This document shows, piece after piece, positions 6,899 to 62,987 of a stretch of DNA of 64,000 bases; the stretch's first letter is position 1; each line of letters opens with the position of its first letter. The stretch is from NCBI GenBank assembly GCA_035437565.1, contig DAOMYL010000003.1, positions 5,596 through 69,595 on the forward strand, written 5' to 3'. The translations under genes and the position numbers were made by a program. The notes beneath the pieces were generated by a model. It saw nothing but the letters and a program-made list of their open reading frames with translations. It was not told the origin of the DNA and ran no database searches. Source of the stretch: a bacterium (GTDB lineage: Bacteria; Patescibacteriota; Gracilibacteria; BD1-5; UBA2023).

Positions 6899-7090
6899 CC
6901 GGGTGGATTTCGGCCCGAATTTCTCCCATTCGGATTCCAGAGAGCTGGAATCAAAAAAGACGAGCTCTTCTTCGAAGGTCGGTACTACGGACCTACTGGA
7001 TCTGGAGCTCATCCTCCCGCGGTCGAGATAGCCCTTTACATGACGAATGGAACCCGTATCATTCCGGCGAGATACTCTTTTTTCCATTCC

Positions 7091-7354
7091 ATGAAAACGA
7101 TACGCATCTACTCCAAGTCCTATTGCCCCTACTGTGTGGAGGCCAAACGCCTGCTCGATCAGCTCGAAATCCCCTACGAAACGATCGATGTGACAGATGA
7201 CGCCGGAACGCTCATCGAGATCTCCGCGAAGTCCGGCATGCGGACGGTCCCACAGATCTGGGCTGATGACGAATGCCTGGGAGGATACTCGGACCTACTC
7301 GCACTCTGCAAATCCGGCGAGCTCGATGGACGGATCCGGAAAATTCTGTCTTAA
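7091..7354 (+). CDS. grxC: glutaredoxin
   Basis: MKTIRIYSKSYCPYCVEAKRLL carries the CPYC active site; TVPQIW and GGYSDL are also present. About 87 aa, TAA stop. Confidence 0.9.
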   Translation: MKTIRIYSKSYCPYCVEAKRLLDQLEIPYETIDVTDDAGTLIEISAKSGMRTVPQIWADDECLGGYSDLLALCKSGELDGRIRKILS

Positions 7355-7398: not shown

Positions 7399-8553
7399 AT
7401 GTCCGATGAAAACAAGACCGTCTATGAACGGAGTCTCGATCTGCATCGCCAGTATGCCGGGAAACTCGAAACCGTGGCAAAATTCCCCATAGAATGACGC
7501 GAGACTCTCTCGCTCGCATACAGTCCCGGCGTGGCCGAGCCGTGCCGAGAAATTGCCCGCGACCCCGAGAAGGCCTACGAATATACCCTCAAATCCAGTA
7601 CGGTCGCCGTCATCAGCGATGGGACCGCCGTCCTCGGACTCGGCGATATTGGCCCGCTCGCAAGCCTTCCTGTTATGGAAGGAAAATGCGTATTGTTCCG
7701 GGAATTTGGTGGAGTCAATGCTTTCCCGATCGTTATCGATACGAAGAATCCCGATGAATTCGTCGAGACCGTGAAGCGAATCGCCGGATCATTTGGCGGA
7801 ATAAACCTCGAAGATATCTCGGCTCCACGATGTTTCGAGATAGAGCGTCGGCTCAAGGCAGAACTCGATATCCCCGTGATGCACGATGATCAGCACGGTA
7901 CGGCAATTGTCGTGTTGGCCGGACTTATCAATGCTCTGAAAATTACCGGTCGTGATCCGCAGACTCTTCGCGTTGTCGTGAACGGACTCGGTGCCGCGGG
8001 AACCGCCGCCATCAATCTCCTACGTTCATACGGCATATCCGATATTGTCGCGTGCGATAGTCGCGGCATTGTCTCGCTCGATCGCGAGGATCTCAATCCA
8101 GAGAAGCGCGGCATCGCGGAATCCACCAACCCACGCAAACTCTCCGGCACACTCACAGACGCGCTTGAGTGAGCGGATTGCTTCATTGGAGTGAGCGTGG
8201 CATGAGCTCTCACGCCGGACATGGTCCGGTCCATGGCGAGCGATCCGATCGTTTTCGCGCTCGCGAACCCCACACCAGAGATTCTCCCGGAAGATGCCAA
8301 GGCTGCGGGGGTACGCATCATGGCAACAGGGCGATCCGACTACCCGAACCAGATCAATAACGTCCTGGCGTTCCCAGGGATATTCCGCGGTGCTCTCTCC
8401 GCCCGCAAGCGCGAAATCACCGATGAGATGAAACTCGCGGCAGCCCAGGCAATCGCTTCTCTCGTAGAACACCCGACTCCCGATGAGATCATCCCAGATC
8501 CATTCGACCGCCGCGTTCCGGAGATTGTGGCCGAGAGAATCCGAAGTCTCTAA
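7399..8553 (+). CDS. NAD(P)-dependent malic enzyme, short form of about 384 aa
   Basis: [37 protein letters not shown] and ANPTPEI are present. Three in-frame TGA (7495, 8170, 8203) fall in PIE[G]RETLSLAY and ALE[G][10 protein letters not shown][G]ALT. Confidence 0.92.
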
Positions 8554-8587
8554 CAAAAAATCCCTCCGATTCTTGTGGAGGGATTTT

Positions 8588-9559
8588 TTAGAGATATCCT
8601 CGCTCTGTTTGCTCGGATGAAAAGATCGAAGTGATATAGAGATATCCTCCTACCAGGTAGGCGAAGACGATGCCCGGAAATCCCAAAACCATAGCAGAAT
8701 TGAAAACCGCATGTACGAGGATCGCCGCACCCACGCCGTAAATAAGATACCTCCGGAATGCCATCCAGGGAGTCATACGATCGGATGCGATGAACGACCC
8801 GAAAAAAGAGACTGCGAGCATCGCCGAACACGTGACGTGCAGAAACGTGGAGAAAACAGAGCGGTATCCGAGTGTTTGCCAGTATATACCGGAGAAGACC
8901 GACCCGGACGAGGCAATGGTTGCGAGGTAGAGGATGTTTTCCACGAACGAAAAACCAAGTGCTACGAACGTACCGGAGACCAAGGCTTGCTGAAGCGTCC
9001 CGGACGATGGAAATGAGCCGGAAAGGAACCCGAAATGCTTGACCGCTTCTTCGGATGCCGCGACTAAAACATAGTAGAAGAATATCGCTCCGACCGTGGC
9101 ATAAACAGCATCTTGGAGAACGAGCGGCGAAGCTGGCTCGATACCATAGAGTCCCGTGATACCAGCAAGTTGCCACAATACGGCTGCCACAACGCCGAAA
9201 ACAAGAAAGGCCCCGGTACTCCGAAGTCGATCCCGTGACGATGCTCAGGTCACTCCGAAGAGGAATCCGAAGACGAAAATCAGCAACGCGAATAACATGA
9301 CCATCAGCGCGTACCCGAGGAAAAACACTACGATTCCCGCAGATACGTCCGCAGCGAGAGGAAACGGATTGAGTCATCCAACCCCTGCCATGGAGAGAAT
9401 CGAATCAAGTGACAAGACGAGGGCTATGGCCGTACCACCGAATACAAGCCCGAGCAAAAACCGTCTCGCGCTCGCCGGGGAGCTATCGTAATACGAAAAG
9501 AGGTATCCCCAGAAGAGCACCGGAACGAATGCGAGAATAGCCGTCGCGATCGTACCCAC
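8588..9559 (-). CDS. PrsW-family intramembrane metalloprotease
   Basis: Polytopic membrane protein with EEAVKH, GFSFVEN and HAVFN motifs. Track ORFs 9374..9559 and 8588..9190 share a frame. They are joined through TGA at 9374-9376 and a second TGA in the open gap (my count about 9248-9250). Confidence 0.75.
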
Positions 9560-14005: not shown

Positions 14006-15384
14006 CCACACGACTCATGAATGCGGTGCGGCCCGATATGCCGATGATTGATACCGTGCTTTCCAATACGCAATGAGCGAGGTGTGTTTCGCTAGGGCTC
14101 GATAGGCGTCTGCCGGAGATTCGTGCGATTCTCCAGGCTTCGTTCGAGCGTTTTTTCGAGAAAACAATCCCGCCTGACGAAGAATTTTCCCGACTCTGAG
14201 CAAGAGAGCGACTCGTGCTGGCTGCCTATGCGGCGATTTCGTACGGATCTCGCATGCAAGCACATCCTGCCATGCTCCAGAAATCTCCTGGCTCATTGGA
14301 ACTCATGGGCTTGTTTGATCGAATGCAGGCCGAACGCCGCTTGGTACGGATCAGCCAAAATCGCGCGGCCGCATGACACGAAAACAATATTGATACCGCT
14401 CCTGTGGACCGCCAGATCCGCCAGCTTGCCTGTGTGGACAATTTTGGCCTCACGGACGTACTTGTCTTGACCGAGCGGTGACATGACTGCTCCGGATTGT
14501 TTTTCATCGATACAGACGGTGCACAGACAAATCTCGAGAGTGCGATATTCCACCGAACGCCCGTATTCTTCTCCCCACCAAAAACATTTGTCGCGAATGA
14601 AGCGGTCGCGCCGCTCGATATTTTTCTATCGGCACTCGACAACATCGTGATAAACGGAACCGTCGCAAAGCTCGATATATCGCCGAGTCCCGGCTACTAC
14701 CCCCAGTCCGCTTCGGAGAGATGGGACGCGGGGATTTTTCTCTGGCCGTGATTTACGATCGTCGCCGCGTGATCCCCAAGGCGCCAAGATGATATTGTCC
14801 GAGCTTGTGTATCACAATACCGGATACAACGAATATTCTCCCTGCGCTTGATGTGTTTCCTGCACGATCGGACATTCGTTCCGGTAGTTCCGAGCGAATA
14901 CGATCAGCGAATTCGAGCGATGCTCGCAGCATTCGAGCGAAAGTTTCCGGAGAGTGGAGCGGTCATGCGAGACCTGCGCGAACGCTGAGGAGCAATCTTC
15001 GACCTCGAGCGTTCGCTTGCAGCGACGCTCCCATGGCACGTCCGGACAGCCTGGAAGCGCATCTTTCCTCTACTCATCGCCCGATCATGCGGAGCGAAAG
15101 TCGGTACCGGAAACGACTGGAATGGAGACCCAATGACGACATATAACGAAGAGTCGGTATGGGATATGCCCCCAGCAGAGGAAAACACAGTGCTCATGGT
15201 ACGAGCGTTCTCGTGCAAAGGGAAGTCTCGCGGGGTCTTGGCACTTGTGCAGGAGGGACGATGGACAGCACTCGACTTCGATAGGCGGCGGTATATTCCA
15301 CTCACGACATTCCTCCGGGACTACGATGGATACTCGATCGAGCAAAAACCCCTCCTCCAAGAAGTCGTATCTCAATCAAATTAG
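13936..15384 (+). CDS. hypothetical protein (about 482 aa) containing seven in-frame TGA
   Basis: One frame is free of TAA/TAG from 13936 to TAG at 15382-15384. It links track ORFs 14497..14751 and 15133..15384. TGA at 14074, 14197, 14374, 14479, 14752, 14770 and 14986. Composition is protein-like (LVLTEAGHDCSGLFFIDTDGAQTNLESAIF...). Start uncertain; alternative ATGs at 14017, 14038 and 14044. Confidence 0.55.
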
Positions 15385-21521: not shown

Positions 21522-21635
21522 AGACATAACTTCGACCTACCAAACGCGTCCGGGAAATGGATGCGTTTTTTTGATAATACGAGCCAAACTGGTACAATGG
21601 GAGCGAATATGCCCTGAATCGTAAACGATCGTACC

Positions 21636-24600
21636 ATGACCACCGGAAATACCAATACCCTTAACTCCGCCAATGAAAATATCCGGCGTCAAGCCGAGAC
21701 TCCGGAAGCCCGGCGCGAACGCCTGAGAAGGAGGCTGCTCTCGGAAGTCCTGGAGGAGCGGATCCACCGAGGTGAATGAACCGCCGGGAAGGGGTTGGAG
21801 TATTACGACCGCGTCAAATCGGAGTCGGGATATCTATCGATACGCGCTGATATGCGCTCCTATCTCGCATCCGCCGACCCTGAAACACTCGATGATGCCC
21901 TCAGAGAGATCACTCCCGCCGAAATCGCCGAACTCGTGAGCGGAATCCCCGATGACGACATACGGCATACGCTCATGCGGTACGGTGCCTCTATCGAATC
22001 CGATCGTGAAGCAGCTCTCGAACGGATCAAGGGAGAGTATTCCCTCGTACCGGCAGACTTCCAGACGATCCGGGGTTTCATTGCCACGGCGAGCCGCGAA
22101 GATCTCACAGCTATGGCCAAGAACAAAGCCGCTCGCAAACGCGTGATCCAGACGAAGGCTCACGTGAACCTAGAAGGACGCGACCGAAACATTGCGAGTA
22201 TCCTCGATGAGATCGGACTCAACCAGGTAAGCAAGCCTCTGAACGATACGGACAAGGCTCTGATTCGGCGACTCATGTACCCAGGAGGGGGTGATGTTCG
22301 ATTCGTATCATCCGCCGATGTGAAGCGTCTATTTCAGATCCTCGACTTCACTAATGCTGCCAACCGCAATGCAAAATCTCGCAAGGCACTGCGGAATCTC
22401 TTTCGCGCATACTGTCCGATGATCCGTACTGGGACACTGCGGAAATCCGGATTGCTCACTCCCGAGACGGTACGATCCATTCGCGAAGCGATCATCCGGC
22501 ATCAGCCCGGAGACATGGAGGCGACATTCGGATCGTACATCATGGGGATCAATCTCACGGAGGAAGAAATTGTCCGTCACGATTCTATTGCCATACCATT
22601 CGACCAAATTGCCGACTCAACGATCGACCGACTCATAGATGCCGAGAATAGCGATCTCTTCGAAGCGATAGCAAAAGATTTAACGGACGAGCGGAAACCT
22701 GACCAACCACACGAATCTGGAGAGCTCGGCGAGCGCGATCCTCATGACTGGCTCATTGAATCCGAAGACGAGCGTCCGGGACGTGACAACTCCAGTGTCC
22801 CTGAGTCTTTAGGGCTCTACGAGTATCTCAACGACCATGGACAATTGGTGCCGAGACTCGCCGCAAGAATCAAAAAACTCTTTCCTCACGTCACTGGAAC
22901 CGAGAGAATCGGGGACGACACCTTCGTCATGGGGAAGATCCGCGATAAAAAAACAGGCAAAGAATCATCCGTCTACATTCAGATCCACGAAGCATTCTCC
23001 GGATGATTCCTCTCCCCAACCATCCGTATCCAAAGCCGCGGAATCATTGACGCTATCGATCTCGAAACCGACACTTCTGGTGATACGGTGGAAGAGCTCG
23101 ATTATAATGAATTCATCACAAGTCTCGGGTCCCTCGACTCGGCCGAAATTATCGACCGCACGGAACTCGACCGCCGTCTCCAGATCAACAGAAATATCGA
23201 ATCCGGACAGCAGGTATCGGATGAAGACCGAAAACTCGCAGTCGCCGACTACGTGCCATCGACCAACATCCGGACGATTCACGAACTCGCACGCCATCTC
23301 AACGAAATTGACTCGACCAGATCGGTAACGGAATTCGGCGTTGGATCGAGTTTCGACTTCGGAAATCCGAAGAGACCCGATGGATACGAGACATTCTCCG
23401 TTACGGCCATCAACGAGCCCTCATCATTAATCACCATAAATGACGGAGCCGGCAATTCATTCACCGTATCGTTTACCGAGTTCTACGCACAATTCTCGGC
23501 TCTGAAAGCGGCTCGTTTCTCCGACCCTCTGAATACTGCTGATGGCGTGGTAAAGACACTCGGATCGGAGCTCAGCGGAAATAAGTCGGATGCCTGGAGA
23601 AAGATCGCATACGCGAACGGCGAATTCCGGGACTCGTCCTCTGTGGGCGATGGTGCGAATCCTTCCGAAGAACTGAAAAAGCCGTTCCGATTCTTCCAGC
23701 AAGGGGACACACTCGTCGAAATTGTCAAATCCGCTCCGGGATACGTCACGTTCGTCCGACACGAGGGTTTCACGCCGGAAAAAGTCGAGAAGGACAAGGT
23801 GACTCCGGCGACTTCCAAGAAAGCCTGGAGGTACGAGCGGGTTGGGTACGAGAAGCTCTATCAAGTATTGCGGACCTATGAGTGTGAGCCAACAAGACTC
23901 TCGCATGAGATCGGTGGAATCGATAGGAAATTCGACATCCAGGAAGAATGATCTCCGATCAAAGGACTCTTCAAGAACAAACTCAGCATCCGCGATATTA
24001 TTGGCGCGTTCAAGCAAGGGTCTGAATATTTCAATAACAAACTTGAGAAGAACGATACCATCAACCAGGCGAAGCTGCTCTCCTCGGTATTCAAGCACAT
24101 GCCGGACTGGCTCTTCTCCGAGGCCGACAAGCTCAAGCTCAAGAGTCAATTGCATGGGGAAGTAGAGAAAAAAATCGATGAAGTGAAGGGCATGCTCGAA
24201 AAGAGCATGTCGGGGCTCGACCGGCGCAAACTCACCGAGAAAATGCTCCTCAACCGGAACACGAAAATGCCGGAACTCATGGGTGCCATGCTCGTAACGC
24301 TCGAGAAGTGAGGAGGAATGCTCTACGCCGAACCGCCTCTCTCCAAGTACGAATGAACCGGGCTCTGGTTCAAGCGGTTTGCTGGTCTTCCACCAAACTG
24401 CGACCATACGAAGACGCAGAAGTGGAAGGAATACTACCAGGAAGCCATGGACTTCCGCGACTCGGAAGCCGGAAAACAGCTCAATCTCTCCGGGGAAGTT
24501 ACCGAGATCGAGATCATCTGGACCTGGGCTCGCAAAGTGGAGAAGGACGGAGATGCGACATTCATCCCAAACTTCGGCCCGCGCGTATTTCGAGCATGGG

Positions 24601-25961
24601 CTGAATGACGCCAGGCCGAAACCGAAAAAGGCAAGCGCGAGGCCGACAACTACGGAGACCCAGGGAAACGATTGACCTACGCGCTCAACAAGGCGCGCGA
24701 AGGACTATGGTATTGCGCGATGGGAGACTACAACAAATCGGGGGACGGTGCCGCCATGCAATCGATCATCAACAAGGGATGAGATGACTACCTCAACGGC
24801 GCATTTCCGTTCGTAGCGATCATGGGAAATGCCTCCAAGATGGTGCCGATCGGAGTCTTCAACAAACTGCGTGTCAGCATGGCTATGGGAGGGAAATATA
24901 CCTACCCTCCCTTCATGTTCATGAAGAATCATGACGATATGAAGCTCTTCCGGCGAGTCGTGGAGAAGCTCATAGCAAAACACGGAAGTCAAAAGGCGAA
25001 AGAGCTTGTCCAAAAAATCGCCTACATCCGCGATGAGCATCCCGGAGCCACATACGATGGGCAACCCGTTAACCAAATCCTGGTGGATCTCACGCACCAG
25101 CTCTGGAAAGACCATTGACGCGACATGGATCTCATGCAGAAGCTCAACGTCTTCCGAGACCGCACCCTCATAGCCGAACGACATAATGACCCGGATTTCG
25201 ATCGATATATCCGGAATATGGAGTGATTTTACAGCGATAGCGAGTGGTCGAAAGGAAGCGCGGAGAACGAGAGCGAACGCCAAAACGAAGTCTACGCTGG
25301 AAACCACACCCCTCCGCGCGTAGACGTGATCGCGAAGTGGATACACTTCAGCGACCAGACAAGCGGCATGGACAGCAAGTCGAGTAAACTCTGGACGCAG
25401 GTCCTCTCACACCTCGACATGATCAAGACACTCAAAGACCCGCGCGTCCGAAGCGACGATGCTCAGGCCGAAGCAAAGCACGATCTCTACCGGAAGAAAC
25501 TCTTTGCCGAGTATCAGCACGCCATCGCCAAGGAAATCATGGACGAGACCAACCAGCACAACGACTACACGAGAACCCAGAAGTACGCGAAGGAGCTTAT
25601 CGAGAAGTATGGATTCGATGAGACCCTCTTCGTACCGGAGATGCTCCGGACCCACCCCGACCCGGAAAAGCGCGTAAAAGAGCTCCGCGAGCAACGGGAG
25701 CCTCTCGAGATTCTCGAATTCGATTCATACCAGTATGCCGAAGATGGCGCATACGACCGGTATGTCTCGGAACCTGGAATCAATGCGATCGAGAAACGAT
25801 CGTTCCAAGACCGGTTCAATACGTTTATGGGGCGGAGTTCCACCACAGTCTCCACCGGAGAGACTGGACCAATCAAGTTTTGAGCACTCGGACGAAAAGT
25901 CGCTGAGCAAGTCGCAGGATCGGTCGCGAACGACCAAGATGAATGGCGACGCGCAGCCTAG
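21636..25961 (+). CDS. giant hypothetical protein (about 1441 aa), no signal peptide, about ten in-frame TGA
   Basis: Track ORFs 21795..23006, 23088..23951, 24099..24311, 24822..25118 and 25326..25883 are all in frame 0. I translated every gap and found only TGA interruptions. TAG at 25959-25961. The frame is also open upstream to ATG 21636 (MTTGNTNTLNSANENIRRQAETPEARRER); other candidate ATGs at 21597 and 21561. Confidence 0.75.
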
Positions 25962-51584: not shown

Positions 51585-51603
51585 CAGTGTCGGTATGAGA
51601 AAA

Positions 51604-53592
<1,989 letters not shown>

Positions 53593-53667
53593 TCACCCTC
53601 CCGTGAAACGTTGCGTCTGGAGGGAAAACGAATACAATCTTCTGCCATCCAATAAACTCCCAACGAC

Positions 53668-54336
53668 ATGGGCAACGCGCATATCATCACGGAACACAAG
53701 GACGACACGCTCGAAAACTACTTCTTCGGCCTCATCATGGCAAAAGCCGTAACCTACGAGACGATCGATGGGGTGCTCGCGAAAATCCGCTATCTCCCGA
53801 CAGAACTGGGAGACCGCACGAGCGAGATGCGTTGGCTCTCTGAAGAAGAGCGTATGGCAATCATTTGAATGCTGCTCGGATCGGGATTCGATGGAGACTT
53901 CGACGGAATCCGGAAGTATGTGAACCGCACGTTCTTGGAACACATGGATATAATCCGAAAAATGCCGTACGAAGAGCGTGGGGCCATCCCCTCTCTCATT
54001 CTGAATATCGTAGAGAACCTCATCGATATTCACGACTCAAATGCCATGAATTTCGTCATGCACGACAAGAAAGAAGATGTGGAACGACTCCTTTTGGAGT
54101 GTGTCGTCAATGCGACAAAAGAGCTCGGACGGGAGCTCCTCTCGATCCTCTCGAGCGTCCGCGACCTCTTCGAACGCACGGTCGGAGCAAACCATGCGGC
54201 GGAGCTTGCGACCATCTCAGGACGCGTGAAACGGGCGATGGAAAGTCTCGTGGAAAAATACGAATACGACCCCGAGATCGAGAATAATATCGAGCTCTTC
54301 CGAATCGACATGCAGCGACTCCGCAGCCGGCTGTAA
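53668..54336 (+). CDS. hypothetical helical protein (222 aa), upstream partner of giant ORF 2
   Basis: Track ORFs 53668..53868 and 53869..54336 share a frame, joined by TGA at 53866. TAA stop 47 nt before the next start. Confidence 0.6.
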
Positions 54337-54383
54337 GGAAAACCTGCACGAAAGCGCGTACGAAAAATCCTACTAGATTTCCA

Positions 54384-57300
54384 ATGAGCGACGCTCTTTT
54401 ATCCACGCGAGAAGACCCCTGCCAGACCGTACCGAATGCGAAGCCGGCACATACGTCCCCCATTCTTCCGCCGCTCGAATCAAATGAAGCCTTTCTCGCC
54501 GTGATTCATGCTCTCCGCGATGCCGAGGTTTCGAGTCCAGATCGCACCCGGAGTATCGATGCAATTATCGCAAAAACGACGGCAGGCACGGGAAGTCCTA
54601 GGATCAACAAGAATGGTGTGATGGCGATATACACGATTGCTTCGAGTCTCGCCGAAACATTCCAGAACCCTACATTCCAGCAAGATCCGAAAGAGCCTAT
54701 CCACTCTTTCGTTTCGAATCTCCCGGACATGTTCGAACCAGGGTCATGGATGAGATCCGTGATCGCTTCGGATCTTCCGCGAAACCGACGTGAAACACTC
54801 ATATACGGCACGTTTTTTATCTGGCTCGATCGGACGTATTTCCGGCACAAGGGAGCCCGAGTACCCGAACCAATACTCCGGTACCTCCAAGAAGATCATG
54901 TCCAGACACAGGGCGTCCACTTCTTGAAGGCGAGTCTCGATAGAATGGGGAGCAACAATGACAATCACCGGAACCGACACCTCGAACTCGGATTCTGTCT
55001 CCTCTCAGGAGACGACTCGCTCGAGATCGCGGAGCTCGTAGAGGAGGCGAAGCGACCGGAAAACCAGTGACTCGACAAACAAAGCTGCGTGGCACTCGAA
55101 AAAATAGAGACGGGTTTCCGGACTGCGGCGAACGTACTCAAGAATGAATTTCAAGAGCAAATCAACAGTACAAAAGGGGCGGCCACGATTTCGGACATCT
55201 CGAAGTTCCTCATCAAGACCGACCGAATTGTCGACCGCTTCGGTGTGCATATCAACCTGATGAACTGGTCGATGCAACCATATGCCGAGGAGCCGGCACA
55301 CCGTCCGTACATTCTCCTGCTTCGCAACCACATAGACCGAATAGAAAAGAGCGTCCGCGATGTACTGGATATCGTCTCGGATATCGAGAAGCTCTACCCT
55401 GCAAATTCCCCTTGGGCATCGAGCCAGAATGGAATGCTCGTTTCGGTCTTGCGACTCCGAATGCTCTGGCTCCAATACAATCTCTGCAAGATCCAGATCA
55501 ACACCGCCCCCTCCCTATTCGAGCAGAGAATACATAAAGGCGGAGGAAAAACGCAAGAGAACCACCAAATCTACGCAGCCGAGACAGAGCGTTTCACAAA
55601 GCGAATAGAACTCGGGGAACAAAATCTCTCCCAAATTATCGCGCTCTGCGATGATCTCGCCAGTCGGGAGCCGCGGTACGCACAATGTGCGGCGGCTGCC
55701 CCCTGGGACAATTCCGGATGACCGTCACAGATGCGGACCGGAGATCTCATCGATGCTATCATTGGGCACGCTACCACATCCCTCGATGCCGACAAGAATC
55801 GCGCATTGGAGCAAAGAGAAAAACGCAGAACTTACGGTATTCTCTGCAATTTCTCCTATCTCCCACTCATACTCGCACGCTACGAATCGAGACTTGAGTC
55901 ATCAGTGCGGCGCGACATCGAGAGTGGAATCTCAAATATCCTGCTCATGCAGGAAGAGAGAGATCCGAATACTCTCAACGATGTGGATCTGGTGACAGCG
56001 GAAAACGCACAAACCCGACGCCTCCAGTTCATTCGGAATTTCGCACAGGTACCACCGGAAAATCCGGACATTTTTCGCGAAACCGTAGAGAACGCATACC
56101 AACTCTTCCGGACTCTTCCTGCCGAAGAGCGCACCGACGACCTACTCTCGATGCTCGCTGATACGCTCATGCGACGTCTTCAAGAAGTCTGATCGCGGCG
56201 GACTTCGCTCCAGGCATCCCTCCTACTCTTCGAGGTGACGCAAGCACTCCGTCTATCATACTTTCGCAGTCCCCGAGGATCAAAAACACTTTCTGGTACG
56301 CTCTCTCGGATTTCACAGTTTGCCAAAACAAACTCAAGTGCTGGATCTTCATCGGATTCTCTCGGACGAATCTGTCTCGAGCTTGCCCGAGTCTCCGCCA
56401 TCATCGGAGCAGATCTCTGTACCAACCGGAAATACTCCGTTGTTCCGAAGGAATTAAAACAAGAATGCTTCGAGAGTCTCCGAAGAGCTCTCTACCTTCA
56501 TCCGAATTTTTCAGCGGTCCTCTCATCAATGGAGGCTGATGAGCTCCAGCGCATCAGCGTAATGCTCGACATCCAGAGTCCCACCGATCTGCTCACGAAG
56601 ACTCGTCCGGCAAAAGACGTACTGGTGAAAGGAATCAGGAGCATCGTTATGACGATGGGGTCGAGAGAGCGTTCGAGAGCACTCACGAACGCTCTCTCCA
56701 AGGAAATCGCCACGACCGTGAATGAATTGCTCGAAACGGAAGATGCCCAACACGCCAAGGCGACATGAACGGTAATCAACCATCTAAGAACCCGTCTCAC
56801 CAAGAGCGTCTTTGCGATGATCGGCGAAAAAATATTCCACGGCCGCTGAGTCGTCCATATGGCGATTCTCAAACCTGAATCATTCAAGACGTCCGAGGTG
56901 CCCGACTCATCAGCGATACTCTCGGCCGCGGTAAAGAACGAAGAAATTTCCCGAGATCAGCGCATCACGCCACTCGTGATTCATCCGTGAGTCGTGATAT
57001 TCGTGGCTCACGAGCCGACCGTCTCATCCCAGATCCGCTCCATTATTCAGTCCGAAGGACTGGAAGACTCGATGGAACGTCTCTGCGATGCCATACTCGA
57101 TCTCCAAGACGGCCTCGATGGAGCCAAGCTCGCGAAAAAATGTATCGAGGCTCTCCTGCCACGGAAGAGGAGTGGCATGATGAATGCCTGTGCCGGATGG
57201 GTCATCGATCCGGACACGGGCATTGCATCAGCTCTTGCGGGTGATTCAATCAATGAAAACAAGACTCCTGAGAATAGAGCTTCTTCTGTCGCCCGGGCCG

Positions 57301-58541
57301 CGAGTGCCTGCTATCTCGCTGTCACCGATGCTGGCGAAGCACAGGAATTCAAAAAACCTGGAAGTGAGTCTACCCATTATTTTCAGTCGCTCTACTTCCA
57401 GACATCAACACGCACTCCCCCATCTTGCCTGCGTCCCGGTGCGACAATTTTCCTCCAGGTAGTGCCGCAGTGAGAATACTTGTCACACCTCGTGAGAAAT
57501 GGAATCATTTCGGGGAGCGCGCTCGCAACGATACCGGCACACGAAGTCGCCGCCCTCGAGAATACCGTCCCACTGATCGGAACAATTTCCCATGTGAGCC
57601 AATGATGACAGGTGGACGTTATGATTACCGGACCACTCACCTTTGCCCGGCACTATCTCACAACCATGCGGGCAGCACGATCGGCGGGAGTCGTCTACAT
57701 CGATGAGCGGAGTATCCAAGGGTCCAATTCGGAACACGGCATGCTCACGGCACAATCACAAATAACGACCGGGAACCGCGGACAAACGGTCGCCCCGAGA
57801 GTCCTCATGAGCGGCCCTGGGTGAGAAAATATGAGAGGCGTCTGTTCGTTTCTTGGTCCGGATTCATTGCGAGTCGTCTTCGAGCTTTCGAGAGATGCGA
57901 TCTCAAGACTCGGCCCGTTTCTTGCGACACAGGGCGATCTGACAGTGGCGGTAAACATACTCTCCGATCTTCGAGCGAACCTCGTCTCTGCTCTCAGAAA
58001 CCTCTGTCGCAAAGACGAAACAGCAAAAGGGGAAATGGTCACCAAATACCTGGACCAAACCCTGCAAAGGATCCTCGACAATCCACAGGCGTCACCTGGA
58101 AAAAACTCCAGAATTTGAACTGAAACAGCACGAAAAATCCATTGGGGTGAGCTGATAAAAAGGACAATCCGCGCCGCAATCCCTCCGGAAAAAGACTACA
58201 CGCCCGATGCCGTAGATGAGATCATTCGAACCGTCGGTGACGATCTTATCGAGCACACGTCATCACACGATTCCATCTTCCACGAACTCCTCGCGCTCCC
58301 TGGGCTCGATGCCGCCAAAAATCCGCTCTTTCGCATAACAATAGACTCGAAAACACTTGAGCTTTCCACGGCAACGATCGACCATCTCAAAACACCGCTT
58401 ATCACGATGAACCCTCACTCTGGACTCGTGGAGCTGACATTCCGATATACCAGATCGGCGGAATCCAATAAGTTTGTCCGATCGTTGCGAGAGAAGCTTC
58501 TCTGAAACGATGCATCGGGAATGCGATCGACGCTTCTCTAG
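54384..58541 (+). CDS. giant hypothetical protein (1385 aa), no signal peptide, twelve in-frame TGA
   Basis: Track ORFs 54384..55070, 55089..55721, 55731..56192, 56235..56768, 56994..57473, 57612..57824 and 57831..58118 are all in frame 0. All gaps I translated contain only TGA. TAG at 58539-58541. No motif recognised; predominantly helical-looking sequence. Confidence 0.75.
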
Positions 58542-59695
58542 AACCCCCTGCGCCGTACGATCAAGAATCGCGCGAAATATCCGACAAGAAACATTGACAA
58601 AAAGATCATTCTCAGAAGGTCGGTGCTTTCGAGTGCGGTACGCACTGAGTCTGGAAAAGAGAAGATGACCGCTGCCTGTGCGATCCCGTTGATAAATACC
58701 TCAATGACCGCAAATCCCCCGAGGAGCTCTTTAATGTTTTTTATGTGGTCAACCCGATCACGATCGATCCGGGCGCGGCGCAGTTCCGATTCACGTTCGG
58801 CGGCACGGCGCGCGCTCTCGAGGACGGTTTCCTTCACGAGGGTATTCTTAGAGACGGCTTTTTCGTAGGAACGGAGCGTTGCCTTCGCCTTCCGTACAAA
58901 ATTATCGAAGTACCGGGACTCCGTGGCACCGAGCGTTTCAATGCGCGATTCCAGATTCTCCACATTGCCTTCTATCGACTCAATGTCGTAGGCGAGAGAG
59001 AAATTGAGAGAATCGAATCGCGAGACTTCCCGGTTGAGCTTCGCGAGAACATCATCTCCAAGACTCCGGCGAGACTCATCAGCCAAGAGGCGTTCGCATT
59101 CACGTACGATCTGCTCATGCATGACGAGTGATTCTGGGTAGACCCCTCAGAGAAAATGCTCGTGAAATCGGGCGATCTTGCGGGAGTATACGATAATGTG
59201 TTCGATATTCTTAAGAGCGTTGGTGAGGTACTCTTCATCCTCCTCAAGAGAAAAAACAACGTGTGTCCGGTCGAGACGTTTATGCGCGAGTCCGTAGGCG
59301 ATGTGGTCGAAATAGCGCATATTAGCCGAACAGTCCGTCACCGTGAGCAGTACATCATCGGTCGGGAGAGCCATGCCTCCGGATGGAAGATCCGGAATCG
59401 ACCCAAGAATCTGCCTGGACGATTCCACGAATCATGAGCCATCCACGGTCGAGTCGGACGATTCAACCGTGACGGAGTACTCAAAGAGGTCTACATCGAA
59501 AAAACGCTTCATCCGAAAACGGAGTATCTGCCCCGGAGTCGGAATCCAAGATGCTTCATCTCGTCGTGAAAACCGTCCGTCGAGTGCAGCGTGAACGACC
59601 GAAATATCATCGGTCGTCCGCGAAACGCTCGGATCTCGCAGGACCGGGAAGACTCGAACGTAGGCAGGATTACGAATCGGTATCGGTAAGTGCAT
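58538..59695 (-). CDS. hypothetical protein (385 aa): globular N-domain, coiled coil, two C-terminal TM helices
   Basis: Track ORFs 59432..59695, 59147..59428 and 58538..59122 share a frame; TGA at 59432 and 59147. Coiled coil IESIEGNVENLESRIETLGATESRYFDNFVRKAKATLRSYEKAV. TM helices LLGGFAVIEVFINGIAQAAVIFSF and LLRMIFLSMFLVGYFARFLIV. Confidence 0.65.
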
Positions 59696-60023
59696 GGGTG
59701 TGCTTTATCTGGTCGAGGACAATCGCGGACATAAGAGTAATGGAGTTGCAAATTTCGGCTTCGGTCTCATCGGTACCGGAGAGGTCCATATCCCGCGTCA
59801 CCGAGTCCGAGTATTCGATCGGAATCAGTGCGGTCTCCAGACCGGCACGCAGAGACGCAAGCGCGTTGGAGAGAGCAAGCGCATCCGATCGGCCCGATGT
59901 CCGCCAGACCTCCAGAAGCAATGCCACGATGTTATCGTGCTCGACCGGATCAAACAACCCGTCCTGGAGTGCGCGCGAGACCGAAGCGAGAAGCAAGCGG
60001 GATTCCTGAATCTGCGATAACAT
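59670..60023 (-). CDS. small helical hypothetical protein (117 aa)
   Basis: Uninterrupted ORF. Its ATG is 13 nt after the CHAT gene stop. Its TAA lies 26 nt inside the next gene. Confidence 0.55.
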   Translation of the reverse strand: MLSQIQESRLLLASVSRALQDGLFDPVEHDNIVALLLEVWRTSGRSDALALSNALASLRAGLETALIPIEYSDSVTRDMDLSGTDETEAEICNSITLMSAIVLDQIKHTHALTDTDS

Positions 60024-60036
60024 GGGAGTCTGGGAG

Positions 60037-62514
60037 TTATTCGGTCATGTCCGCACTCTGAGCCGGAAGTCCATCGAGATGCTCATCCGGAGAGCCGTAG
60101 TAAATGAACGCAGCCCATGATATATCCTGCGGATGACGCGAACGGAGGTACTTTTTCGACTCCACGAGCGATGATCCAATCGTGTCTCCGGCAAGTAGGT
60201 GTGAGTAGAAGCGTCCGGCAAAATCGCTCGCAGACACATCATTGACTGGCCACATGGTGGAAATGACACCCTTGGCCCCTCCGACTACGAATCCCGTGGC
60301 GATCCCCACGGATCCGAGCGGATCGGCATCGAAAATGCGATCCGAAGAAGGCACTTCGACGACAGTGTCGGAGAGCGCGCCAGATGAACAGGCATTGAGG
60401 AAAATCAGTGGATTCCCTCCGAGTGACCGCTTGATTTCAGTCACAGAGAGCAGCTGTCCGGAGGCGAGCACGAGACCGCTCTCATCGGGCGTATCACGGT
60501 CGTGCACGGCATGTCCAGCATAATGAATCACATCCCATGCCTGCCCGAGTAGCGGTACGAGATTCGGAATACTGGCATCCTCTCATCGTACTACCGTCAT
60601 ATCCGCAACACTCCGCATGGCAGCAATAATTGTCTCGACCTCTCGCTCCGTCCCCGGAAGATCTCCCGTTGGATTCACGATAAAGAGTATTCGAGGTTTT
60701 CTGTGTGTCTTGACAGGATTGACACGAATCTCGCCAGATACCAGCAACCCTCTTGCTATGGGATAGGAAAGCGCGAGAAATTTCGTACCATCGTGCATGA
60801 TCTCCCACGGAATCTCCTGCTCATCGGTACGGATCACGAGATCTCCGGATCGCGATGAGAGTGCCTCGCGTATGCGCTCGGAGAGGAAGAGTCGGTAGAT
60901 GGTATTGCCTGAGGTTTTGAGATCCGGAACGGACAACGGAAGGCTCGCAAGCTCATCAAGTGCCGTGCCGCGCACGATGGCAAGACGATTCACGGACGAG
61001 ACGAAAGCCCGAATTCCTTCGATCACCGCCTTACGATTCTCCTCAAGGACCTTTATAGAGCGTTCATAGAGGTCTCGGTATTCGATCCGGTATTCATTCC
61101 CGGTGCGAAATATTCGCAAGACATCGGTATTTTTTCGTTGGTCGTCCGAGGATTCCGTACGAGCGTCACGTACGGCAGATGCCCTCATGCGAGGTGACCG
61201 GCGAATCATCCAGATGATTCCTGTCATACCGAGAATCGCGACAAAGATAGCGACAAGAAGAGCTGGATCGAGAGATTCGAACGAGGAAGACGCTCTCGTA
61301 TCGGCGAGTACCTGTGGTTTGGATGACCCGATATCAGCGGTAGCGAGCAAACCGGATCACTCGATCTCGTTGCCACGCTCCTGCAAATCAACGGACTCAA
61401 GAGATTCCGAAGACTGAGGGGCTTGCGAGGATTCGTCCGTTTTTCCCGAGGCGGTGAGATTCTTTGTGTTTCTCTTCGTGTTTGGCGTCTGTGAGACAAC
61501 CCCCGTCCAACTCGGCGTATCCGGTGATTTGGTCACTTTGACACCGAGCGTATATTCATTGATTCGTCTCCTCGTATCATCTACGAACACTCGCAATGAC
61601 GAGGCCCTATCAGACACATATCAAACCGCCTCGAGATCATCGAGCGTGTATGAGATATTATTAATGCGCTCGAGCCATGCAACTCGCTCGGAGTCAGAGA
61701 GATCTTCGCGTGCGAGTGCCTTCGCGAGGAGGGATTTCTCGGATGCGAGATCGACTCCCTCGATGAATTCGATACCTGAACGCTTCCGATCGAGCTTCGA
61801 TTCGAGCGATGACAGGAGGAATTTCTGGGAAGGGGTCATACGTTCATCGTACTCCCGACGTAGCACAGCAATCCGCTCGATCGCTTTCGAAAGGTCTGCT
61901 TGCGAGTTGAGGTACGAGACCACGACTTCTGGCTTATTGCGCAGGAGATCCGGAGCGAGCGATTGGAGCGCGGAGTCCGAGAGGAGAGCGGATTTCTCCG
62001 GAAAGAGTCGTTTTCCGAAGCCGGACAGATCAACAATTTCCTCGCTGCATACGACCCGGCTGTTATCCATTACGATACAGAGGCGAGCGAAACGAGGCCA
62101 GGAATCCGCTCGCGCGAGGACGGAAGCATCCCCCTCGGACCCGAGAGAAAACGCCTGTCGATCCGCATCGTACGACACCGATCAGGGGGCATTTCTCTCA
62201 GAATTATCATAGTACCACAGGAGATTTTCACCCTGATAGGTCATTCAGACATCGTACTCATCGGCATAGATGAGCTTGAACCATGCGGCATCGCGCACTA
62301 ACCGAGAGTCTTGCGCGCTCCAGGAGAAGCGCACAATTCGATCGGACGGCATATCCACGGAAAAATGGATCCGATCCGAGACCACAGACGGATCTGACTG
62401 GACGACTGAGCGGGACTCCTCGGCATATACGAAGCCCGACCACCCGCAGAATAACAATGCGGCGAGACAGCAAAGGACCACATGCCGGGACGAGAAGGAA
62501 TCGAAGAAAGACAT
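60037..62514 (-). CDS. transmembrane CHAT-domain (caspase-like) protease, about 825 aa
   Basis: Track ORFs 62245..62622, 61621..62178, 61357..61617, 60583..61350 and 60037..60531 are all in one frame, joined by TGA at 62245, 62182, 61621, 61357 and 60583. Signal/anchor MSFFDSFSSRHVVLCCLAALLFCGWSGFVYA. Internal TM LLVAIFVAILGMTGIIWMI. CHAT core ILFIVNPTGDLPGTEREV ... VIHYAGHA (His) ... LIFLNACSSG (Cys) ... VISTMWPVNDVSASDFAGRFY. Confidence 0.75.
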
Positions 62515-62781
62515 ATGTCCCATGAAAGAGCAGTTCTCTCTCATCAGAATACCGCACTTTTTGTGCCATGACAACTTCTTGGGCGCAAGAATCGGCAACC
62601 CTCCCGAAAACCCGCCAGCCACGAATAGACGCGAAATCCAGATATTATGGCTTCATTCTGCCATGTTGCCACTTCGTACCGAACAATTTATTTATACGGG
62701 GTAAATTTTGGGATAACTTTTTTTCTGGCTTCGCAGAGGTGATACCGAGTGTTTCCTCAATACTGGCTCTTACTATTTTCT

Positions 62782-62811
62782 TTGACAAAACAAAATAGTG
62801 TTGCTTAATAT
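62782..62811 (+). promoter_or_regulatory. sigma70-like promoter with no downstream CDS
   Basis: TTGACA (62782-62787), 17-18 nt spacer, TTAATAT (62805-62811). Confidence 0.55.
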
Positions 62812-62814
62812 CAA

Positions 62815-62967
62815 CGTGCCACCGGGGAGATCAAATATCCCACCGGCACGGCCTCGGGCCAAGCCATATTCTTACCCTCATTCTTATGCGAGTGATGCAG
62901 TGGCACTAAAAATGAAAAAGCAAAATCTCTGACAAAAGGTTTTCCCGGGAGCAATCCCGGCTTTTTT
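62815..62967 (+). ncRNA. candidate small RNA of about 150 nt, class unknown
   Basis: Bounded by the promoter at 62782 and the terminator at 62944. No plausible ORF. Internal pairing potential: GTGCCAC with GTGGCAC about 80 nt apart, and GGCC-TCG-GGCC. Confidence 0.4.
62944..62967 (+). terminator. intrinsic terminator of the candidate sRNA
   Basis: CCGGGA-GCAA-TCCCGG followed by C then TTTTTT on the plus strand. The minus-strand reading has no adjacent T run. Confidence 0.65.
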
Positions 62968-62987
62968 GTGACCGAATCGCCCGGACC

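What the first reader, a model, noticed from the sequence alone, without database searches (positions are those of the whole stretch)
53668..58541. Giant 1385-aa cytoplasmic ORF with a 222-aa upstream partner, no recognisable domains
Seven track fragments lie in one frame, separated only by twelve TGA, and give a 4158-nt gene ending in TAG. There is no signal peptide or TM segment, and I could not spot any nucleotide-binding or catalytic motif. It is preceded by a co-directional 222-aa helical protein (47-nt gap). It converges stop-on-stop with the CHAT module, so the two units may be functionally linked. Under the standard code this locus looks like about eight unrelated short ORFs, which is how such a gene escapes description.
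Basis: partly seen in the sequence, partly recalled or inferred. Interest (0 to 1): 0.62.

Follow-up and report, generated by a model that had tools for sequence, protein, structure and literature searches.

The report
Real orphan 1385-aa gene, TGA=Gly
The twelve TGA-separated fragments are one real, conserved gene for a large soluble protein found only in a small group of stop-codon-recoded (TGA = glycine) bacteria; its function is unknown, and comparison with relatives shows no dependence on the neighbouring CHAT protease genes.

Summary
Window 54384-58541 (+) is one frame of 1385 codons with 12 in-frame TGA and no TAA/TAG. It is preceded by a 222-aa gene and meets a minus-strand 385-aa gene in a shared CTAG.

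The genome reads TGA as glycine. It has a tRNA(UCA) with Gly identity elements and no RF2, and TGA sites align to Gly 14 of 38 times and never to Trp.

The gene is real:
- It is the best coding frame in every 300-nt window.
- Full-length orthologues (1321-1387 aa, 33-40% identity) occur on metagenome contigs; one has no TGA at all.
- dN/dS is 0.13-0.25.

No Pfam, NCBIfam, PADLOC, PHROG or PDB match exists. AlphaFold gives an all-alpha, solenoid-like N-half (pLDDT 71) and a poorly modelled alpha/beta C-half with no fold match.

The family is absent from 88 other species of its family and about 400 genomes of its class. It evolves 3-12 times faster than its housekeeping neighbours.

The proposed link to the CHAT module is not supported: some lineages have the giant gene without CHAT, and one has CHAT without it. 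The 222-aa "partner" also occurs without the giant gene.

Best guess: a lineage-restricted cytoplasmic scaffold protein. This is a new orphan family of moderate interest.

The parts
54384..58541 (+). Giant gene: 1385 codons plus TAG. In-frame TGA (= Gly) codons start at 55068, 55719, 56190, 56766, 56847, 56988, 57471, 57603, 57606, 57822, 58116 and 58503. The exact start is uncertain by about 30 codons, because the first ~33 residues are poorly conserved and modelled as disordered.
   Evidence: frame and TGA positions; best coding frame of six in every 300-nt window; orthologues; dN/dS 0.13-0.25; TGA aligns to Gly.
54384..56648 (+). N-terminal half (residues 1-755): all-alpha, helical-repeat or solenoid-like region. 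It is the better conserved half (38-41% identity to orthologues) and holds the invariant motif MNW.M.PYA.EPAHRP (residues 293-308).
   Evidence: AlphaFold2 on a 4-sequence alignment: pLDDT 70.9, pTM 0.59, only helices. Foldseek against PDB gives only generic alpha-solenoids, best E 4e-4, TM at most 0.26. Alignment A3.
56586..58538 (+). C-terminal half (residues 735-1385): mixed alpha/beta modules plus a helical bundle, with no recognisable fold. Invariant motifs include H.P (876-878), DLQD.LD (906-912), CYL (976-978), LRPG.T (1016-1021), GPLT.AR (1083-1089) and VFE (1165-1167).
   Evidence: AlphaFold2: pLDDT 56.7, pTM 0.35. Foldseek against PDB and BFVD finds nothing with E below 0.01. No internal repeats by hhalign. 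Alignment A2.
53668..54336 (+). Upstream 222-aa acidic protein (P0002; 40 D+E versus 28 K+R; 1 TGA), 47 nt before the giant gene and divergent from gyrB.
   Evidence: coding frame; 70% identity to L015/L027/L028, 39% to G006; profile hits of E 1e-10 to 1e-12 in genus g26. No Pfam or PDB match.
58538..59695 (-). Convergent 385-aa protein (p385): soluble N-terminal part, coiled-coil-like region and two C-terminal transmembrane helices. Its stop overlaps the giant gene's stop in CTAG.
   Evidence: hydrophobic peaks starting at 327 and 362; 61% identity to L015; no credible match in 40 relatives, G006 included; one marginal hit, E 6e-4, in G030; no PDB match.
59670..60023 (-). Small ~115-aa gene between p385 and CHAT, with apparent counterparts in L015 and G006.
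   Evidence: The resemblance is by shared motifs read from the translations; no alignment statistic was computed. The codon score is weak (9.9).
60037..62664 (-). Membrane-spanning CHAT (caspase-like) protease: signal anchor, outside domain of about 400 aa, transmembrane helix near residue 470 and a cytoplasmic CHAT domain. The likely true start is M51 (62514).
   Evidence: Pfam CHAT E 3.8e-35; PADLOC BovA 1e-11; hydrophobic peaks; sequence. No coding signal in the first ~50 codons.
51604..53520 (-). gyrB, the conserved left anchor of the locus. It has 638 aa and no TGA. The table-25 'ORF' running to 54195 is a read-through artefact.
   Evidence: NCBIfam gyrB E 2.7e-286, matching from residue 231 of the extended ORF; table-11 ORF 51604-53520.
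62768..62969 (+). Promoter-to-terminator small-RNA-like unit, the conserved right anchor of the variable slot.
   Evidence: Promoter TTGACA-18-TAATAT and a terminator. Homologous stretches lie right after CHAT in L015, right after the giant gene in L018/L027, and partly after CHAT in G006. No Rfam match.

Best explanation
The locus is one genuine protein-coding gene of a genome that reads TGA as glycine (code 25; class Gracilibacteria in the wide sense). It encodes a soluble, cytoplasmic 1385-aa protein that founds a previously undescribed family.

The family is limited to the window's own genus-level lineage and a few uncultured relatives known only from metagenome contigs. The gene sits in a variable slot between the conserved gyrB/222-aa pair and a conserved small-RNA-like unit.

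Inferred mechanism:
- The N-terminal ~750 residues form an elongated all-alpha, solenoid-like surface that binds other proteins.
- The C-terminal ~630 residues form several compact alpha/beta modules that carry whatever specific activity or recognition the protein has.
- It is a dispensable accessory protein under moderate purifying selection, diverging much faster than its neighbours. That pattern suits a protein whose binding partners also change, for example in host interaction or conflict.
- It acts independently of the neighbouring CHAT protease module and probably is co-transcribed with the 222-aa gene.

Shown: the gene, the genetic code, a single polypeptide, conservation, selection, distribution and the absence of known domains. 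Inferred: the scaffold role and any tie to host interaction.
For: Genetic code:
- The tRNA(UCA) has G1:C72, C2:G71, G3:C70 and U73, which are Gly identity elements.
- Only one release factor was found, and it scores below the prfB cut-off.
- TGA aligns to Gly at 14 of 38 sites against a background of 6.4% (p = 4e-8), and never to Trp. Within this gene it aligns at invariant Gly822 and at Gly229.

Real gene:
- It is the best of six frames in all windows.
- The frame is far longer than chance frames.
- Orthologues are 1387 aa (L015), about 1351 aa (L018) and 1321 aa with zero TGA (L027), plus partial ones (L016, L021, L028). They align end to end at 33-40% identity.
- dN/dS is 0.126 (L016/L021), 0.19 (L018/L027) and 0.24 (L016/L018).
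- Composition looks native: GC3 is 0.575 against a genome mean of 0.619 +/- 0.063.

Soluble: there is no hydrophobic segment.

Fold: the N-half is all-alpha at pLDDT 71 and matches only alpha-solenoids.

Restricted distribution:
- None in 88 other species of the family, by profile search.
- None in about 400 genomes of the class.
- None in genome, metagenome or viral contig scans.
- Among 5.8 billion proteins, only a fragment of its own family (P0004 from L015).

Fast evolution (G000 versus L015): dN is 0.695, against 0.056 for gyrB, 0.064 for ftsE, 0.20 for ruvB and the 222-aa gene, 0.33 for p385 and 0.41 for CHAT.

Independence from CHAT: the slot holds giant gene + p385 + small gene + CHAT in G000 and L015, the giant gene alone in L018/L027, and small gene + CHAT alone in G006.
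Against: - No partner, ligand or activity is shown.
- The alpha-solenoid reading rests on a 4-sequence AlphaFold model of moderate confidence and on Foldseek matches with low TM-scores (at most 0.26).
- No sequence repeats were detected.
- The C-half model is poor (pLDDT 57), so a known fold could be hidden there.
- Many invariant Cys, His and Asp residues in the C-half could form an active site that I cannot recognise.
- Whether the L018/L027 organisms carry a CHAT module elsewhere is unknown, since only 4.5-5.3-kb contigs are held.
Confidence: 0.55

Rival explanations
1. The giant protein is a component, regulator or substrate of the adjacent membrane CHAT protease module. One version is a trans-acting helical-repeat partner, like the TPR regions usually fused to CHAT domains or the solenoid of separase. 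The convergent 2-TM protein p385 would then be the membrane effector.
For: - The two are adjacent with a shared CTAG stop, conserved in two lineages 36% identical in the giant protein.
- The giant gene and p385 are both missing in G006.
- This CHAT protein lacks the helical repeats common in the family.
- The giant gene, p385 and CHAT are the three fastest-evolving genes of the region.
Against: - L018/L027 keep the giant gene under purifying selection with no p385, small gene or CHAT between it and the small-RNA-like anchor.
- G006 keeps the small gene plus CHAT without the giant gene.
- A G281 CHAT homologue lies in an unrelated context.
- Profile comparison shows no relation between the two protein families.
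- The genes are on opposite strands, in separate transcription units.
Confidence: 0.15
2. The giant protein is an effector delivered to a host or prey cell by a route that needs no signal peptide, and the acidic 222-aa upstream protein is its chaperone or adaptor.
For: - The upstream acidic protein is adjacent in 5 of 5 contigs.
- The giant protein diverges very fast but under purifying selection.
- Its lineage distribution is restricted.
- Its N-terminus is disordered and poorly conserved.
- Relatives with this code are epibionts or predators with many large host-interaction proteins (PMC8080830).
Against: - The 222-aa family occurs without the giant gene in G006 and in genus g26, where it sits next to a murA-like gene. 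It is therefore not a dedicated chaperone.
- No secretion signal or secretion system was linked to the gene.
- The large proteins described in Vampirococcus are membrane or surface proteins, unlike this one.
- The whole region is syntenic among these relatives, so adjacency may be mere inheritance.
Confidence: 0.15
3. The long frame is not one functional gene. Either it is a decaying pseudogene or chance frame kept open because only TAA/TAG stop translation, or it is two or more same-frame genes merged by the reading.
For: - With only two stop codons and 53% G+C, long spurious frames are common here. Examples are the 653-aa and 544-aa antisense frames and a 662-aa shadow of gyrB.
- The codon score per codon is in the lower quarter of genes.
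Against: - The frame is far longer than any simulated frame.
- The coding signal is continuous.
- Orthologues have the same length and align end to end. One has no TGA and was called as a single 1321-aa gene.
- dN/dS is 0.13-0.25 in three pairs.
Confidence: 0.03
4. The 222-aa protein and the giant protein act on the chromosome, for example as a HEAT-like DNA- or topoisomerase-associated scaffold, as their constant position beside gyrB might suggest.
For: - Divergent adjacency to gyrB is kept in G000, L015, L027, L028 and G006.
- Foldseek hits include cohesin and condensin HEAT subunits (STAG2, Scc2, a condensin head-segment chain).
Against: - Those hits are generic for alpha-solenoids and rank beside karyopherins, with TM at most 0.26.
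- In genus g26 the 222-aa homologue is not beside gyrB.
- No DNA-binding motif was found.
- The gene is missing from nearly all relatives, and such fast divergence is unusual for chromosome proteins.
Confidence: 0.05

Closest known systems
Alpha-solenoid scaffold proteins (HEAT/ARM/TPR class: importin-beta/transportin, APC5, STAG2, separase N-terminal region)
   Same: The predicted N-half is entirely helical over about 720 residues, and its only structural matches are to this class.
   Different: TM-scores are at most 0.26. There is no Pfam repeat match and no internal sequence repeat. Many helices are 30-38 residues long, longer than in typical HEAT or TPR units. The protein carries a 630-residue alpha/beta C-half unlike any of these.
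Large proteins of code-25 relatives such as Vampirococcus lugosii (PMC8080830)
   Same: Both are very large lineage-specific proteins without a clear function, in small recoded genomes of bacteria that live on other cells. This genome also has 33 ORFs above 1000 aa.
   Different: The Vampirococcus proteins are predicted membrane or surface proteins with WD40, PKD and similar domains. This protein has no signal peptide, no transmembrane helix and no known domain.
CHAT-protease conflict or defence modules (for example Borvo BovA; TPR-CHAT proteins)
   Same: It lies next to a CHAT protease that matches the PADLOC BovA model at 1e-11. Helical-repeat partners are typical of CHAT proteins.
   Different: The giant gene and the CHAT gene occur independently of each other in related genomes. 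There is no sequence relation, and no PADLOC model matches the giant protein.

Membership tests
Gene read by genetic code 25 (TGA = Gly) | A tRNA with anticodon UCA and glycine identity elements | tested here: met
   The tRNA at C7:45097-45175 has G1:C72, C2:G71, G3:C70 and U73. ARAGORN labels it 'SeC' only because of the anticodon.
Gene read by genetic code 25 (TGA = Gly) | No release factor 2 | tested here: met
   There is one RF-like gene at 276 bits, below the prfB cut-off of 370. The genome is only 77% complete, so this is supportive rather than conclusive.
Gene read by genetic code 25 (TGA = Gly) | In-frame TGA aligns with Gly in orthologues | tested here: met
   TGA aligns to Gly at 14 of 38 sites against a background of 6.4% (p = 4e-8), and never to Trp. 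All rseP sites (3 of 3) align to Gly; in ruvB, 3 align to Gly and 4 entries are TGA opposite TGA. Invariant Gly822 and Gly229 lie in this gene.
Alpha-solenoid repeat proteins (HEAT/ARM/TPR) | All-alpha architecture of stacked helical hairpins | tested here: inconclusive
   The AlphaFold N-half is only helices (pLDDT 71, pTM 0.59). Foldseek probabilities are high but TM is at most 0.26.
Alpha-solenoid repeat proteins (HEAT/ARM/TPR) | Detectable sequence repeats or a match to a repeat family model | tested here: not met
   There are no Pfam matches for any of 4 members. hhalign of segments against each other gives probabilities of at most 3.3%.
CHAT-protease module component | Co-occurrence with the CHAT gene across genomes | tested here: not met
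   L018/L027 have the giant gene without CHAT at the locus. G006 has CHAT without the giant gene. G281 has CHAT elsewhere.
CHAT-protease module component | Sequence relation to CHAT proteins or to known defence-system proteins | tested here: not met
   hhalign probability is at most 0.44%. There are no PADLOC hits.
P-loop NTPase / STAND-type large conflict proteins | Conserved Walker A motif in an alpha/beta domain | tested here: not met
   The only GK[ST]-like string, KGGGKT at 385-390, lies between two helices of the all-alpha half. Its Lys is Gln in L015, and the position five residues before the Gly of the G-K-T string is Ile or Val.
Effector plus dedicated chaperone pair | The small upstream protein occurs only together with its effector | tested here: not met
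   The 222-aa family is present without the giant gene in G006 and in genus g26.
Surface or membrane giant proteins of code-25 bacteria | Signal peptide or transmembrane segment | tested here: not met
   The maximum 19-residue hydropathy is 1.27, with no peak above 1.6.

The most novel reading that the evidence does not exclude
The giant protein is the founding member of a new class of fast-evolving cytoplasmic or delivered proteins that code-25 episymbiotic bacteria use to deal with their host or with invaders. Its C-half would carry a fold and activity not yet seen. It sits as an exchangeable cassette, beside a CHAT sensor-protease cassette, in a conserved variable slot next to gyrB.
Probability: 0.12. 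Interest if true: 0.7.

Novelty: new variant of a known kind. Interest (0 to 1): 0.33.

Why it matters
- It shows concretely how a recoded stop codon hides a real 4-kb gene. Public protein sets hold this gene as eight unrelated fragments and its orthologues as 4-6 pieces.
- It defines a new protein family with seven partial or complete sequences from about five lineages and conserved motifs. This family can now be annotated and tested.
- It corrects a tempting guilt-by-association call: the CHAT module next door is an independent cassette.
- The slot between the gyrB/222-aa pair and a conserved small-RNA-like unit varies in content among close relatives. Such slots are useful places to look for accessory and conflict functions in these poorly known bacteria.
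- The function remains unknown, and large orphan proteins are common in these genomes, so the finding is solid but not startling.

Tried and rejected
- **Sequence families.** Pfam, NCBIfam, PADLOC and PHROGs gave nothing for the giant protein or the 222-aa protein. Pfam on all family members also gave nothing.
- **PDB by sequence and by profile.** Nothing was found for the giant protein, the 222-aa protein or p385.
- **Word-indexed search of 5.8 billion proteins.** The single sequence found nothing. The profile found only one orthologue fragment.
- **Six-frame genome searches.** None were found in 40 relatives, about 400 genomes of the class, or all 88 other species of the family.
- **Pattern scans of contig collections.** Genome, metagenome and viral contigs gave none.
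- **Exhaustive HMMER search of 1.84 billion representatives.** This was the only search that found the orthologues.
- **Paralogy with the other giant ORF (21561-25961).** None.
- **Internal repeats.** None.
- **Relation to CHAT proteins.** None.
- **Mobile-element signs.** There are no meaningful flanking direct or inverted repeats, and composition is native-like.
- **Contig C36.** It looked like a second copy but is a 100% identical assembly duplicate of C3, so it is uninformative.
- **Foldseek of the C-half.** PDB and BFVD gave only insignificant hits. Weak longin/roadblock-type hits (Mon1-Ccz1, Fuzzy-Inturned; E 0.05-0.12, TM about 0.1) were considered and rejected as noise.
- **Walker A reading of KGGGKT.** Rejected.
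- **Sample identity.** A literature search for the sample accessions found nothing.


Full report
**1. Observation**

Under NCBI table 25, window 54384-58541 (+) is an open frame of 1385 codons ending in TAG. It has twelve in-frame TGA codons, at residues 229, 446, 603, 795, 822, 869, 1030, 1074, 1075, 1147, 1245 and 1374, and no TAA or TAG. The 222-aa frame at 53668-54336 (+, one TGA) lies 47 nt upstream.

The TAG at 58539-58541 shares the tetranucleotide CTAG (58538-58541) with the stop of a minus-strand 385-aa gene. Under table 11 the locus falls into short ORFs. A public library of predicted proteins holds eight such pieces of 43-228 aa at 99-100% identity.

With only two stop codons and 53% G+C, long spurious frames abound in this window. 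Examples are the 653-aa and 544-aa frames antisense to this gene, and a 662-aa shadow of gyrB. Length alone therefore needed a test. In 60 Markov-1 simulations of 64 kb the longest frame averaged 489 codons and never exceeded 793.

**2. Genetic code**

The assembly has 1.17 Mb in 42 contigs at 53% G+C and is 77% complete. Three lines of evidence support TGA = Gly:
- A tRNA with anticodon UCA has an acceptor stem (G1:C72, C2:G71, G3:C70) and a discriminator (U73) that are the bacterial glycine identity set. ARAGORN calls it 'SeC' only from the anticodon.
- Only one class-I release factor is found, and it scores below the prfB cut-off.
- Across eight syntenic gene pairs between the window and locus L015, TGA sites face Gly in 14 of 38 cases, against a Gly background of 6.4% (p = 4e-8), and never face Trp. 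In rseP all three sites face Gly; in ruvB three face Gly and the others are TGA opposite TGA.

Within the giant gene, TGA sits at an invariant Gly column (822) and at Gly229, which is Gly in both orthologues that cover it.

**3. It is a real, single gene**

- A self-trained codon-usage log-odds model puts the annotated frame first among six in every 300-nt window from 54384 to 58434. The same holds for the frame of the 222-aa gene.
- An exhaustive HMMER search of 1.84 billion representative proteins with residues 186-1385 found fragments of orthologues besides the window's own pieces.
- Their contigs give full-length frames of 1387 aa (L015, a 394-kb JGI contig, 9 TGA), about 1351 aa (L018, 2 TGA in the stop-to-stop frame, one of them upstream of the likely start) and 1321 aa (L027, no TGA, called as one gene by its source). 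Partial frames come from L016, L021 and L028.
- The orthologues align end to end at 33-40% identity to the window's protein, with about 190 invariant columns.
- Nei-Gojobori dN/dS is 0.126 for L016/L021 (85% identity, dS 0.72), 0.19 for L018/L027 (92%) and 0.24 for L016/L018.

A chance frame, a pseudogene or a same-frame fusion of several genes is thus excluded for practical purposes.

**4. What the protein looks like**

- It has no hydrophobic segment: the maximum 19-residue hydropathy is 1.27.
- It has no match in Pfam, NCBIfam, PADLOC, PHROGs or PDB, whether searched as a single sequence or as a family profile.
- It is not a paralogue of the window's other giant ORF, has no internal repeats, and is not related to the neighbouring CHAT protein.
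- AlphaFold2 with the 4-sequence alignment models residues 1-755 as purely helical after a disordered first ~33 residues (pLDDT 70.9, pTM 0.59). Many helices are 30-38 residues long.
- Foldseek returns only the generic alpha-solenoid class for that half: designed repeat proteins, APC5, transportins and importins, STAG2, separase. The best E is 4e-4 and TM is at most 0.26.
- Residues 735-1385 are modelled poorly (pLDDT 56.7) as a helical hairpin, three or four alpha/beta modules, a helical bundle and a small beta-alpha end. Nothing in PDB or BFVD matches at E below 0.01.
- The string KGGGKT (385-390) is not a Walker A motif. It lies between helices, its Lys is not conserved, and the upstream Gly/Ala position is Ile or Val.

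**5. Distribution and rate**

The family was not found in:
- 40 relatives or about 400 genomes sampled from the class;
- all 88 other species genomes of its family, even by profile. The one 68-residue hit at E 0.004 is taken as noise;
- pattern scans of genome, metagenome and viral contig collections.

It is known only from the window's genome, one JGI metagenome and one series of sequencing runs (SRR23950804-10).

Between the window and L015 the dN values are:

| Gene | dN |
|---|---|
| gyrB | 0.056 |
| ftsE | 0.064 |
| hpf | 0.126 |
| 222-aa gene | 0.199 |
| ruvB | 0.20 |
| rseP | 0.227 |
| p385 | 0.333 |
| CHAT | 0.412 |
| giant gene | 0.695 |

The giant gene is the fastest-changing gene of the region yet is still under purifying selection. 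Its GC3 and codon score are within the genome's range. Its TGA density (8.7 per 1000 codons) is above the genome mean (4.8), while gyrB has none. At 1385 aa it ranks about twelfth of 33 ORFs above 1000 aa in this small genome.

**6. Context**

The window reads: ruvB(+), gyrB(-, true start 53520), 222-aa(+), giant(+), p385(-, two C-terminal TM helices), a small ~115-aa gene(-), CHAT(-), a promoter-to-terminator small-RNA-like unit(+), NIF3(-). The CHAT protein has a signal anchor, an outside domain, one TM helix and a cytoplasmic CHAT domain.

| Lineage | Content between the 222-aa gene and the small-RNA-like unit | Calls |
|---|---|---|
| G000 (window) | giant, p385, small, CHAT | above |
| L015 | the same, gene for gene, including the CTAG overlap | 39, 40, 65, 124 |
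| L018 / L027 | giant gene only; the small-RNA-like unit follows directly | 84, 101, 103, 124 |
| G006 (another genus of the family) | small gene and CHAT only; no giant gene, no p385 | 30, 35, 37, 83, 92, 96 |

In L018/L027 the unit matches the window at 88% over 58 nt and 82% over 40 nt. G006 shows part of the unit's terminator beyond CHAT.

The slot between the 222-aa gene and the small-RNA-like unit therefore varies in content. The giant gene and the CHAT module come and go independently. Only p385 is confined to genomes that have both.

The 222-aa protein is 68-70% identical among the giant-gene lineages and 39% identical in G006. Its profile finds full-length proteins of about 220 aa (E 1e-10 to 1e-12) in genus g26 of another family. 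There it precedes a murA/EPSP-synthase-like gene and lies near recA and gyrA. It is therefore a wider conserved hypothetical protein, not a dedicated partner. Because the whole region is syntenic, its constant adjacency to the giant gene may be inheritance only.

**7. Explanation**

What is shown:
- a genuine, single, cytoplasmic 1385-aa protein read with TGA = Gly;
- a new family confined to a narrow lineage;
- moderate purifying selection with fast divergence;
- no obligate tie to the CHAT module.

What is inferred: the helical N-half is a protein-binding scaffold, and the alpha/beta C-half carries the specific function. The gene is a dispensable accessory function, possibly in host interaction or conflict, as its rate and its place in a variable slot suggest.

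I give this cautious statement 0.55. The rivals are:
- part of the CHAT module, 0.15;
- a delivered effector with the 222-aa protein as chaperone, 0.15;
- a chromosome-associated scaffold beside gyrB, 0.05;
- an artefact or pseudogene, 0.03.

**8. Comparison with the known, and verdict**

The nearest known class is the alpha-solenoid scaffolds. The repeat criterion for membership was tested and not met, and the structural criterion is inconclusive.

Large proteins of code-25 relatives such as Vampirococcus (PMC8080830) are membrane or surface proteins with known domains. This protein is neither membrane-bound nor domain-bearing.

The finding is a well-supported new orphan family and a clean demonstration of a gene hidden by recoding. 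It gives no functional insight yet, and such orphans are frequent in these genomes. Interest is 0.33.

Noticed in passing
window 62768-62969 (+); L015 17805-18019; L018 4365-4541; L027 5107-5283; L008 12783-12814: The promoter-to-terminator small-RNA-like unit beyond the CHAT gene is conserved in related lineages (88% over 58 nt, 82% over 40 nt). It marks the right border of the variable slot. It has no Rfam match.
   Followed up: partly
window 59670-60023 (-); L015 about 14815-15139 (-); L008 9611-9958 (-): A small ~115-aa gene directly downstream of the CHAT gene appears to recur in all three CHAT-bearing loci. Shared motifs are D..DPV.H..IVALL and AE.CN....MS.IVLD.IK. It therefore looks like the constant companion of this CHAT protease. 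Homology was judged by eye only.
   Followed up: partly
genome contig C36 (3132 nt) versus C3 63472-66484 (window about 57877-60889): C36 is a 100% identical duplicate of part of this locus, covering the end of the giant gene, p385 and the end of CHAT. It is an assembly redundancy, not a second copy.
   Followed up: yes
window 51595-53583 (+) and 53521-54195 (-): Under code 25 gyrB appears extended to 863 aa, and a 662-aa shadow frame runs antisense to it. Both are artefacts of having only two stop codons. The real gyrB is 51604-53520, with 638 aa and no TGA.
   Followed up: yes
genome contig C7:45097-45175: ARAGORN labels the tRNA(UCA) as tRNA-SeC. Its acceptor stem and discriminator are those of tRNA-Gly, and only tRNA-Gly(UCC) was found besides it.
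   Followed up: yes
whole genome G000: There are 33 predicted ORFs above 1000 aa in a 1.17-Mb genome, the longest 4193 aa. TGA makes up 6.6% of Gly codons. It is avoided in highly conserved genes (gyrB has 0 in 638) and enriched in large lineage-specific ones.
   Followed up: partly
L109 (G026:C1) about 6486-7142 (+); L110 (G030:C7) 8328-8969 (-): Distant homologues of the 222-aa protein occur in another family of the order. Each is followed by a murA/EPSP-synthase-like gene, and in G030 it lies near recA and gyrA. This is an order-wide conserved hypothetical protein with the invariant core ENLID.HD...F.MHDKKEDVE.LLL.
   Followed up: partly
window 62515-62664 (-): The first ~50 codons of the 875-aa CHAT frame show no coding signal. 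The likely start is M51 at 62514, just before the signal-anchor helix.
   Followed up: partly
L027 (SRR23950808 contig, 5283 nt): A close relative of the L018 lineage has 61% G+C, and its 1321-aa orthologue contains no TGA at all. TGA-Gly usage therefore differs strongly between related lineages.
   Followed up: no
window 57603-57608: The tandem TGA-TGA (Gly1074-Gly1075) lies in a variable loop. Orthologues have DG, DD or GD there.
   Followed up: yes
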